Of a stretch of 5,264 nucleotides of DNA, positions 1,799 to 2,574 are shown in pieces. The position numbers were made by a program, and so were the translations under genes. The DNA is from a virus. Lineage: Duplodnaviria > Heunggongvirae > Uroviricota > Caudoviricetes. The DNA lies in IMG/VR virus record IMGVR_UViG_2609459792_000012; one strand, given 5' to 3'. The notes below the pieces were generated by a model. The model saw only the letters and a program-made list of their open reading frames with translations. It was not told the DNA's origin and did no database searches. How positions within the stretch are numbered: position 1 is the stretch's first letter; each line of letters starts with the position of its first letter.

Positions 1799-2266
1799 TC
1801 ACAATTTTGCATCTGTCTGCTTAATAAATTCGTCAATTTGCTTCCAGATAAAACGCATTTGCGCTTGATCAAATTTTTCTGATCTATCACCAAATATATC
1901 ACAGTGATCAAGCATAAATTTCATATCTGCAAACGGATGATCACCTTCAACAGGATGAAATTTAATTATGATTAATGGGTCATTTTGGCCATCAACAAGC
2001 CGGGCATGAAATAAACCAATATAATATGGGCTAATCGTACCACGATCATTAATGCTGGAATCTTTTATAAGACCAAAAGCACGATCCTCTTTGGTCTGGT
2101 AGACTTCAATGTAGCCTCGTTCTTTCCAAAGATTCATAAGGGCAACAATTTCTGCTGCCCATTCAGTCGGATCGTACCCGAATTGGTTGCTGATTACTGA
2201 GAAAAGGCTATTAACCTTTACATCAGATATGTAAGTTCTCTCGAGAGGTGTTTGTGAAGCGCTCAT
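1799..2266 (-). CDS. Hypothetical protein, 155 aa (low-GC cargo gene, no recognisable motif)
   Basis: Open frame 1799-2287 on the minus strand. The first in-frame codon at 2287 is TTG with a TGA immediately upstream; the first ATG is at 2266-2264, preceded by AGGAAA at about 5 nt spacing, so the start is called at 2266. Hand-counted 60-nt blocks give about 32-33% GC at 1801-1860 and 1921-1980 and 43% at 2101-2160. Confidence 0.6.
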   Translation of the reverse strand: MSASQTPLERTYISDVKVNSLFSVISNQFGYDPTEWAAEIVALMNLWKERGYIEVYQTKEDRAFGLIKDSSINDRGTISPYYIGLFHARLVDGQNDPLIIIKFHPVEGDHPFADMKFMLDHCDIFGDRSEKFDQAQMRFIWKQIDEFIKQTDAKL

Positions 2267-2399
2267 TCGTTTCCTTGAAAAAGTCAATCAGCGCTTGTTC
2301 CTGCTCTTTTGGTGCTCCAGAAAAGGACTTACTACTCACCTTGTCTGAAAGTGCAACAAGGGAAGCGACGAAGTTTCTCTTATCACTTTCGAAGATCAT
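2223..2399 (-). CDS. Small hypothetical protein, 58 aa (62 aa if started at ATG 2411); upstream partner of the 155-aa ORF
   Basis: ATG at 2399-2397 is preceded by GGAGG at 5 nt spacing; the alternative ATG at 2411 lacks an SD. The 3' end overlaps the start of the downstream ORF by 44 nt in the +1 frame. Low GC. It could instead be the N-terminal part of a frameshifted single gene. Confidence 0.45.
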   Translation of the reverse strand: MIFESDKRNFVASLVALSDKVSSKSFSGAPKEQEQALIDFFKETNERFTNTSRENLHI

Positions 2400-2574
2400 A
2401 CCCGCCTCCATTAGTTGATTGAAATGCCGAACACACGCCCAACAATTATTTTATTGTCAGCCTACGCAATCTACATCAATCCGTCAAGAATTGTTTTAAA
2501 TATACTCAAGTAAGAAGTCATCCACAGCAACACATAACCAAATGAAAACAAAAGAAATTAAAAACCCCTACACG

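What the first reader, a model, noticed from the sequence alone, without database searches (positions are those of the whole stretch)
1799..2574. Low-GC overlapping two-gene cassette of unknown function between the integrase and the phage genes (candidate defence or toxin-antitoxin cargo)
Hand counts of 60-nt blocks give about 32-33% GC at 1801-1860 and 1921-1980, against about 55-57% at 3421-3480 and 4441-4500, so this is a compositional island. It holds two minus-strand ORFs of 58-62 aa and 155 aa, overlapping by 44 nt. The second has its own AGGAAA-ATG start inside the end of the first. A dedicated 163-bp AT-rich intergenic region lies upstream (2412-2574), with promoter-like hexamers on the minus strand (TTGACG at 2487-2482, TAAAAT at 2453-2448). 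A hairpin follows the second stop. I recognise no catalytic or DNA-binding motif in either protein. The position beside int, at the edge of the structural genes, is where prophages and satellites typically carry morons and anti-phage systems.
Basis: partly seen in the sequence, partly recalled or inferred. Interest (0 to 1): 0.75.

Follow-up and report, generated by a model that had tools for sequence, protein, structure and literature searches.

The report
Orphan RelE-fold toxin–antitoxin-like cargo cassette
The low-GC two-gene insert beside the integrase is a real, horizontally mobile cargo cassette whose larger protein is predicted to have the fold of RelE/ParE-type bacterial toxins, so it is most likely an unannotated toxin–antitoxin module sitting in a slot where sister elements carry known defence or toxin genes.

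Summary
Window 1799-2574 is a compositional island (38.5% GC, against 54.4% for the phage-like genes). It holds two minus-strand genes that overlap by 44 nt, followed by a terminator-like hairpin. Only the proposed promoter pairing is wrong: those hexamers lie 28 nt apart.

A conserved 50-65-aa gene lies immediately upstream in every locus examined, and is fused in frame in one lineage. Both genes are under purifying selection.

The pair travels as a unit. It sits next to integrases in three unrelated elements and occurs on small plasmids. In sister elements the same slot holds AbiTii, a YafO-family toxin, a type II restriction-modification system or other unknown genes.

Best reading (confidence about 0.6): a new, sequence-orphan type II toxin-antitoxin module of the RelE/ParE superfamily, carried as exchangeable cargo. 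Toxicity, neutralisation and any anti-phage effect are untested. The large protein is acidic and the small one carries no recognisable DNA-binding domain; both are atypical.

The parts
2446..2488 (-). Conserved 5' box (CTTGACGGATTGATGTAGATTGCGTAGGCTGACAATAAAATAATTG), a candidate cargo promoter or regulatory region
   Evidence: Shared by this cassette in other backbones (L004, L015-20) and by different cargo cassettes in the same backbone (L006 YafO-like, L021 69+124 aa).
2482..2487 (-). -35-like hexamer TTGACG (TTGACA in L004 and L015)
   Evidence: Read from the sequence. TTGAC is conserved in all five contexts. Not reported by the consensus scan.
2459..2464 (-). -10-like hexamer TAGGCT (TAnnnT), 17 nt downstream of TTGACG
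   Evidence: Spacing read. Conserved as TAGGCT or TAATCT. A weak match (3 of 6), so this is inference only.
2448..2453 (-).
   Evidence: Present in the window, L004, L015 and L006; TAAAAC in L021. It lies 28 nt from TTGACG, so the two do not form a canonical pair.
2404..2408 (-). Shine-Dalgarno GGAGG for the small ORF's second ATG (2399)
   Evidence: Sequence. Homologues are annotated or called as 58 aa.
2223..2411 (-). Small ORF, 62 aa from ATG 2411 and most likely 58 aa from ATG 2399; the putative antitoxin or partner
   Evidence: A homologous small ORF lies upstream of the large gene in all 11 distinct loci examined, with an invariant Gly and a G-(S/T)-x-x-E...L...F motif. dN/dS is 0.19-0.22. 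No family match.
2270..2276 (-). Shine-Dalgarno-like AAGGAAA for the large ORF, inside the small ORF
   Evidence: Lies in the loop of a weak hairpin (2257-2296) that is not statistically supported.
1799..2266 (-). Large ORF, 155 aa; a RelE/ParE (BECR)-fold toxin-like protein of PHROG 15367
1765..1788 (-). Terminator-like hairpin after the large ORF's stop; it overlaps the 3' end of the convergent int gene
   Evidence: 10 pairs, 6 G-C, tail TGATTTGTAT; I7.
565..1779 (+). Tyrosine integrase flanking the cargo slot (context)
   Evidence: Pfam Phage_integrase E 7.1e-18 and DUF6538.
2575..3003 (-). Endonuclease VII-like gene; the backbone gene on the other side of the slot (context)
   Evidence: Pfam Endonuclease_7 E 3.4e-06 and phrog_423. 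Conserved in sister elements.

Best explanation
The cassette is a self-contained, horizontally mobile type II toxin-antitoxin-like operon.

Proposed mechanism. Transcription starts in the conserved box upstream (inferred) and stops at the hairpin at 1788-1765. The 58-aa protein is translated first. The 155-aa protein starts from its own AAGGAAA-ATG, 44 nt inside the end of the small gene, so its synthesis is tied to that of the small protein (inferred from the overlap).

The 155-aa protein folds as a RelE/ParE (BECR) toxin domain with extra elements: an N-terminal hairpin and a long C-terminal helix. It carries invariant or near-invariant polar residues on or next to the core strands (K68, H87, R89, H121). 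By analogy with RelE, YoeB, YafQ and HigB, it is most likely an mRNA-cleaving translation inhibitor (inferred). The small protein binds and neutralises it (inferred from strict co-occurrence, one natural in-frame fusion and faster evolution of the small gene).

In the element, the module would stabilise its carrier by post-segregational killing and/or abort infection by competing phages, like the other occupants of this slot (inferred).

Shown here: the genes are real and under purifying selection, the pair moves as a unit, the slot is variable, and the predicted fold is RelE/ParE.
Not shown: toxicity, the target, neutralisation, or defence.

For: Enzyme-like conservation: K68, H87 and P97 are invariant; S70, Y82, R89, D96, L98 and H121 are at least 90% conserved across sequences down to 22% identity. 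dN/dS is 0.07 for the large gene and 0.19-0.22 for the small one.

Architecture: a small upstream gene accompanies the large one in every locus examined. It overlaps by 14-50 nt with the large frame at +1 in most of them (window, L001-L004, L011, L012, L015-20, L025-L028) and shares a motif. In one Erwinia-like lineage the two are fused in frame by a 1-nt deletion, seen in three independent data sets. Antitoxin-toxin fusions are documented for this superfamily, with 195 cases (PMC11980606).

Mobility and niche: the pair lies next to int in three unrelated elements. It also occurs on a 4.3-kb Photobacterium plasmid, a 12-kb Vibrio plasmid and many Acinetobacter plasmids. The slot holds AbiTii, a YafO-family toxin, a restriction-modification system and unknown genes in sister elements. 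The cassette is 34-41% GC wherever it is found, lower than its enterobacterial surroundings.
Against: No sequence-level link to any known toxin: 0 of 48 family members hit any of the 13 Pfam BECR families, nothing in NCBIfam, PADLOC or PDB sequences, and hhalign against a YafO-subfamily profile gives 1.2% probability.

The large protein is acidic (pI 5.0; family median 5.9) and the small proteins are mostly basic (median 9.6). This is the reverse of the usual basic-toxin, acidic-antitoxin pattern. However, the Pfam-confirmed YafO-family toxin in the sister element (PF13957) is also acidic (pI 5.3).

The small protein has no recognisable DNA-binding or antitoxin domain. The mapping of conserved residues to RelE catalytic positions was made by secondary-structure register only, not by superposition. 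There are no experimental data.
Confidence: 0.6

Rival explanations
1. The large protein has a RelE/ParE-like fold but is not a toxin. It is a non-toxic accessory (moron) protein, for example a ribosome- or RNA-binding regulator, an anti-defence factor, or an immunity or decoy protein. The small protein is a cofactor or regulator rather than an antitoxin.
For: The large protein is acidic, unlike classical RelE-type RNases. It carries about 70 extra residues beyond the 85-95-aa toxin core. There is no sequence homology to any toxin family. A stable fused form exists.
Against: All significant structural neighbours are toxins or RNases. The conserved His, Arg and Lys pattern suggests catalysis. 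The cassette sits on tiny plasmids and in a slot that otherwise holds Abi, toxin-antitoxin and restriction-modification genes. An acidic YafO-family toxin occupies the same slot. Fused toxin-antitoxin genes are known.
Confidence: 0.2
2. It is a toxin-antitoxin module, but of the ParE kind: the toxin poisons DNA gyrase rather than cleaving mRNA.
Confidence: 0.1
3. The roles are reversed: the small, usually basic protein is the toxic component, and the large acidic protein is its antidote or immunity protein.
For: The charge pattern. Toxin-first gene order exists in HigBA, MqsRA and BrnTA modules (Table 1 of PMC11980606).
Against: The fold of the large protein is that of the toxins. The large protein is the more conserved, enzyme-like partner, and the small one has only one invariant residue. 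In the window itself the small protein is not basic (pI 5.2).
Confidence: 0.05
4. The two ORFs are one gene, expressed as a single polypeptide through a programmed +1 ribosomal frameshift in the 44-nt overlap.
For: The large frame is +1 relative to the small frame in most loci, and a natural in-frame fusion exists.
Against: The large ORF has its own Shine-Dalgarno and ATG. Overlap length varies from 14 to 50 nt with no conserved slippery or stop-context site. Other relatives have the two ORFs in the same frame separated by a stop codon (L022, L010). The last sense codon plus stop, ATC-TGA, offers no re-pairing in the +1 frame.
Confidence: 0.05

Closest known systems
RelE/ParE (BECR-fold) superfamily type II toxin-antitoxin modules (RelBE, YefM-YoeB, DinJ-YafQ, HigBA)
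   Different: No match to any of the 13 Pfam families of the superfamily. The protein is 155 aa rather than about 85-120, with an N-terminal hairpin and a long C-terminal helix. It is acidic. The partner is only 50-65 aa, mostly basic, and has no RHH, Phd/YefM or HTH domain.
YafO family toxin (PF13957), as found in the same slot of E. coli LR-33
   Same: The same slot, orientation and upstream conserved box. Similar size (157 aa) and acidity (pI 5.3). An overlapping small upstream ORF of 64 aa. YafO is a BECR-fold member.
   Different: BLASTP is not significant and profile-profile probability is 1.2%. No PF13957 hit for any of 48 family members. It is not a YafO family member by sequence.
[not shown]
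   Same: A prophage-borne RelE/ParE-fold toxin paired with a very small (63-aa) antitoxin that lacks a DNA-binding domain.
   Different: No sequence similarity. No third regulator gene (paaR2-like) sits next to this cassette. This family conserves His, Arg and Lys, which ParE toxins lack.
Variable defence hotspots of prophages and satellites (P2/P4 hotspots: Rousset et al. 2022, PMC9122126; E. coli defence islands: PMC10121019)
   Same: A fixed slot next to a conserved backbone gene holds different defence or toxin genes in otherwise near-identical elements.
   Different: The carrier here is not P2/P4-like. It is a roughly 15-kb tRNA-Leu element with a capsid homologue, HNH and EndoVII-like nucleases and a helicase, but no portal or terminase. 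Several different cargos share one conserved upstream box.

Membership tests
RelE/ParE (BECR-fold) toxin superfamily | The BECR / RelE-like alpha-beta fold | tested here: met
   [not shown]
RelE/ParE (BECR-fold) toxin superfamily | Sequence membership in one of the 13 Pfam families (list in PMC11980606) | tested here: not met
   No Pfam hit for the window protein at E up to 0.1. None of the 13 families appears for any of 48 relatives at E up to 1. The PDB profile search is empty of toxins.
RelE/ParE (BECR-fold) toxin superfamily | Catalytic basic or His residues on the core sheet (RNase branch) | tested here: inconclusive
   Invariant K68 and H87, and at least 90% conserved R89 and H121, lie on or next to predicted strands 67-69, 85-89 and 109-119. 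Their equivalence to RelE K52/K54/R81 or YoeB H83 was inferred by register, not by superposition.
Type II toxin-antitoxin module | A two-gene operon of a small partner plus a toxin that co-occur as a unit | tested here: met
   The small gene is present upstream in all 11 distinct loci, or fused. The pair moves together between elements.
Type II toxin-antitoxin module | An antitoxin with a DNA-binding domain that autoregulates the operon | tested here: not met
   No RHH, HTH, Phd or AbrB domain was detected in any small-ORF homologue. No conserved palindromic operator was found. Some toxin-antitoxin systems (PaaA2-ParE2) also lack this feature.
Type II toxin-antitoxin module | Toxicity of one protein, neutralised by direct binding of the other | not testable with these tools
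   Needs expression and binding assays.
YafO toxin family (PF13957) | A match to the family profile | tested here: not met
   No PF13957 hit. hhalign of A2 against the YafO-subfamily alignment A3 gives probability 1.2%. BLASTP E = 2.1.
Known anti-phage defence systems (PADLOC-DB 2.0) | A match to a defence-system protein model | tested here: not met
   No hit for the large protein. The small protein has only a 13-bit chance-level hit to PbeC.
Variable cargo hotspot of a prophage or satellite | The same backbone position holds different accessory genes in related elements | tested here: met
   AbiTii (L005), YafO-like (L006), type II restriction-modification system (L007), 214-aa unknown (L008) and a 69+124-aa pair (L021), all between int and the EndoVII-like gene.

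The most novel reading that the evidence does not exclude
The pair founds a fourteenth, sequence-orphan family of BECR-fold toxins with a minimal 50-65-aa partner of a new kind. It would act as an abortive-infection or anti-phage module, plugged in behind a shared, conserved cargo promoter box in an exchangeable slot of a so-far undescribed satellite-like element. That element encodes a capsid protein but no portal or terminase.
Probability: 0.3. Interest if true: 0.6.

Novelty: new member of a known kind. Interest (0 to 1): 0.4.

Why it matters
If the prediction holds, a protein family currently labelled only 'hypothetical' (PHROG 15367) gains a fold-based functional assignment. The family occurs in Enterobacteriaceae prophages and on Acinetobacter, Vibrio and Photobacterium plasmids. 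The RelE/ParE superfamily would gain a divergent branch with an unusually small partner and an acidic toxin.

The finding also marks the slot between int and the EndoVII-like gene of this tRNA-Leu element as a place to look for further unknown defence or toxin genes. The 69+124-aa pair and the 214-aa protein found there are equally uncharacterised.

It is not conceptually new. New toxin-antitoxin families and cargo hotspots in mobile elements are reported regularly.

Tried and rejected
1. Sequence searches of both proteins against Pfam, NCBIfam, PADLOC and PDB found nothing meaningful.

2. The first AlphaFold run used a 13-sequence alignment and was too uncertain to use (pLDDT 54.5). It was replaced by the 48-sequence run.

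3. Foldseek against the PDB and BFVD gave no significant hit. The AFDB libraries were unavailable.

4. The large protein looked like YafO by eye (note). BLASTP and hhalign rejected this.

5. P0017 seemed to be a second natural fusion, but it is only a gene call that reads through a TGA. Under table 11 it is two ORFs. L010 is in frame but interrupted by a stop codon. P0038 is a false positive, a repeat protein.

6. A hairpin covering the large ORF's start codon (2257-2296) is present in the enterobacterial copies. It is no more stable than shuffled sequence (z from -1.2 to +0.8) and is not conserved in distant relatives.

7. Programmed frameshifting: no supporting signal was found.

8. RNA alternatives: Rfam finds nothing in the cassette.

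9. No direct repeats flank the cassette.

10. Searches of the literature for homologue accessions and for the PHROG id returned nothing.

Full report

Yes. The region 1799-2574 is 38.5% GC. Int is 49.5% and the phage-like genes at 2575-5224 are 54.4%.

Two minus-strand ORFs are present: 2223-2411 (62 aa) and 1799-2266 (155 aa from ATG). They overlap by 44 nt, and AAGGAAA lies 3 nt before the second ATG. The small ORF most likely starts at the second ATG (2399, 58 aa). That ATG is preceded by GGAGG, and it is the start used by independent annotations of homologues.

A terminator-like hairpin (1788-1765, minus strand) follows the large ORF's stop and overlaps the end of the convergent int gene. 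The 163-nt upstream spacer ends at the stop of an endonuclease VII-like gene.

The one detail that does not hold is the promoter. TTGACG and TAAAAT exist at the stated coordinates but are 28 nt apart, and the consensus scan reports no minus-strand promoter. TTGACG, 17 nt, then TAGGCT (2464-2459) is the better candidate (see section 5).

No intact tRNA lies in the window. Positions 347-431 resemble tRNA-Leu, and the E2348/69 relative ends at tRNA-Leu. Rfam finds nothing in the cassette.

**2. Are the genes real, and do they belong together?**

The 155-aa protein matches PHROG 15367 (function unknown, E 6.5e-38). It matches nothing in Pfam, NCBIfam, PADLOC or PDB sequences. The family is rare. 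There are 13 clusters in a 5.8-billion-protein index. A full HMMER scan returns 65 representatives among 1.84 billion proteins, and one of those is a false positive.

I compared the window with the 87%-identical copies in E. coli PSJ-07 and with the Enterobacter copies.
- The large gene has dN/dS 0.07.
- The non-overlapping part of the small gene has dN/dS 0.19-0.22.

Every distinct locus I could examine carries a 50-65-aa ORF immediately upstream of the large gene. These loci come from E. coli, Enterobacter, Serratia, Photobacterium, Vibrio, Acinetobacter, Psychromonas, Thioploca and metagenomes. In most loci the small ORF overlaps the large gene by 14-50 nt, with the large frame at +1. The small ORFs share a strand-like segment ending in an invariant Gly, followed by an (S/T)-x-x-E-capped helix. 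A profile search finds 36 clusters of this small protein. All are 'hypothetical' and none has a Pfam domain.

In an Erwinia-like lineage a 1-nt deletion fuses the two genes into one 199-aa ORF. This is seen in a MAG and in two independent sequencing runs.

Another apparent fusion, P0017, is only a gene call that reads through a TGA. One MAG copy is in frame but interrupted by a stop codon. Frame relations therefore vary between lineages. This argues against a conserved programmed frameshift and for two polypeptides that work together.

**3. What is the large protein?**

A 13-sequence alignment gave an unusable model (pLDDT 54.5). A 48-sequence alignment gave a confident one (pLDDT 95.3, pTM 0.89). 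Its elements are an N-terminal hairpin, two helices, a five-stranded sheet region and a long C-terminal helix.

Across the family, K68, H87 and P97 are invariant. S70, Y82, R89, D96, L98 and H121 are at least 90% conserved. These residues sit on or beside the predicted core strands. By register, H87 and R89 fall where RelE has K52 and K54, and H121 falls at the end of the last strand, where YoeB, YafQ and HigB have their catalytic His. This mapping is an inference, not a superposition.

According to Gerdes 2025 (PMC11980606), Pfam holds 13 BECR-fold toxin families, and ParE-type gyrase poisons lack the RNase catalytic residues. None of the 13 families is hit by any of the 48 relatives. Conserved His, Arg and Lys therefore favour an RNase-type toxin over a ParE-type one. 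By sequence this would be an additional family.

**4. Why a toxin-antitoxin module rather than something else?**

- Architecture. A small upstream gene overlaps the toxin-fold gene and is more weakly conserved. This is the classical antitoxin-then-toxin layout.
- Niche. The pair occurs on a 4.3-kb Photobacterium plasmid with only three annotated genes, on a 12-kb Vibrio plasmid and on dozens of Acinetobacter plasmids. It also sits directly next to the integrase in three unrelated integrated elements: this window, an E. coli PSJ-07 prophage with baseplate genes, and Enterobacter and Serratia prophages with a lambda-E-type capsid.
- Fusions. Antitoxin-toxin fusions are documented in this superfamily, with 195 cases, so the Erwinia-like fusion fits.

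Points against:
- There is no sequence homology to any toxin.
- The large protein is acidic (pI 5.0; family median 5.9), while the small proteins are mostly basic (median 9.6). However, the Pfam-confirmed YafO-family toxin in the sister element is also acidic (pI 5.3).
- The small protein has no detectable DNA-binding domain.
- A by-eye resemblance to YafO was tested and rejected (BLASTP E 2.1; hhalign probability 1.2%).

**5. The slot and its shared upstream box.**

The backbone of the window is int, then the EndoVII-like gene, two unknown genes, an HNH gene and a major capsid homologue. It recurs at 90-94% identity in E. coli, but always in two aligned pieces that skip the cassette. Between int and the EndoVII-like gene, the sister elements carry:
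- AbiTii in E2348/69 (Pfam E 4.3e-44);
- a YafO-family toxin with an overlapping, unannotated 64-aa ORF in LR-33;
- a type II restriction-modification system with a controller protein in KFu019;
- a 214-aa unknown protein in LD22-1;
- a 69+124-aa unknown pair overlapping by 4 nt in VREC0864.

The cassette itself is found in only 2 of 5426 complete E. coli genomes, and there in another prophage. Its GC content is 34-41% everywhere. That is below the enterobacterial flanks and similar to its Acinetobacter, Photobacterium and Thioploca hosts, which is consistent with horizontal acquisition.

A roughly 43-bp box (window 2488-2446) has two notable properties. It is conserved among three different cargos in the same backbone. 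It also travels with this cassette into other backbones. The box contains TTGAC(G/A), a 17-nt spacer, and TAGGCT or TAATCT. I read it as a cargo promoter. This is an inference from conservation and spacing, and the -10 match is weak.

**6. Verdict.**

The region is exchangeable foreign cargo, most probably a type II toxin-antitoxin module whose toxin is a divergent, unannotated RelE/ParE-fold protein. My confidence in that mechanism is about 0.6.

The main rival (0.2) is a non-toxic protein that reuses the fold. Minor rivals are a ParE-like gyrase poison (0.1), reversed roles (0.05) and a frameshifted single gene (0.05).

In kind this is a new member of a well-known class, so interest is moderate (0.4). 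It would rise if the module proved to be an anti-phage system with a novel minimal antitoxin, or if the carrier element proved to be a new satellite type.

Noticed in passing
window 565-5224; L005 12565-27546 (E. coli E2348/69): The carrier is a roughly 15-kb integrative element at tRNA-Leu beside hsdR. It holds int, the cargo slot, an EndoVII-like nuclease, two unknown genes, an HNH nuclease, a major-capsid homologue (phrog_267), many small unknown genes, a DEAD/DEAH helicase and a DNA invertase. No portal or terminase is annotated and no remaining gene is large enough to encode one. It looks like a satellite-type element that I could not assign to P4-like, PICI, cfPICI or PLE.
   Followed up: partly
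window 2446-2574 (minus strand); L006 5216-5353; L021 3931-4131: The whole spacer downstream of the EndoVII-like gene, up to TAAAAT, is conserved among sister elements with three different cargos. Its last roughly 43 bp also accompany this cassette in unrelated prophages. It may be a shared cargo promoter, or a homology patch that mediates cassette exchange.
   Followed up: partly
L021 4132-4712: Another uncharacterised overlapping pair (69 aa + 124 aa, 4-nt overlap, no Pfam hits) occupies the same slot behind the same box in E. coli VREC0864. It is a further toxin-antitoxin or defence candidate.
   Followed up: partly
L006 4564-5215: The YafO-family toxin in the LR-33 element is preceded by an unannotated 64-aa ORF that overlaps it by 17 nt and has no Pfam match. 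No annotated antitoxin gene lies beside it.
   Followed up: partly
L008 4812-5456: The slot in E. coli LD22-1 and its relatives holds a single plus-strand 214-aa protein with only a weak, sub-threshold DUF2441 hit.
   Followed up: no
window 2223-2411 compared with 1799-2222; L004: Between the window and the PSJ-07 copy, synonymous divergence is much lower in the small gene (dS 0.29) than in the large gene (dS 1.05). This suggests either a mosaic history inside the cassette or nucleotide-level constraint at its 5' end.
   Followed up: no
window 2257-2296 (minus strand): An inverted repeat (AAGCGCTGATT / AATGAGCGCTT) can pair across the large ORF's Shine-Dalgarno and start codon. This would suit translational coupling. 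It is no more stable than shuffled sequence and is absent in distant relatives.
   Followed up: yes
L022 385-1167; L010 about 3850-4414: Some distant relatives have the small and large ORFs in the same frame, separated by a single stop codon. In L022 the stop is a TGA that the source's gene caller read through, giving the 260-aa 'protein' P0017. In L010 the stop lies inside the N-terminal part of the large domain.
   Followed up: partly
window 347-431: A tRNA-Leu-like 3' fragment that ARAGORN does not call. It is presumably the attachment-site repeat left at the int-proximal end of the element.
   Followed up: partly
window 2248-2418 (+ strand): A 56-aa ORF runs antisense to the small gene and is also open in L004. 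No evidence was sought that it is expressed, so it is probably a by-product of the sense frame.
   Followed up: no
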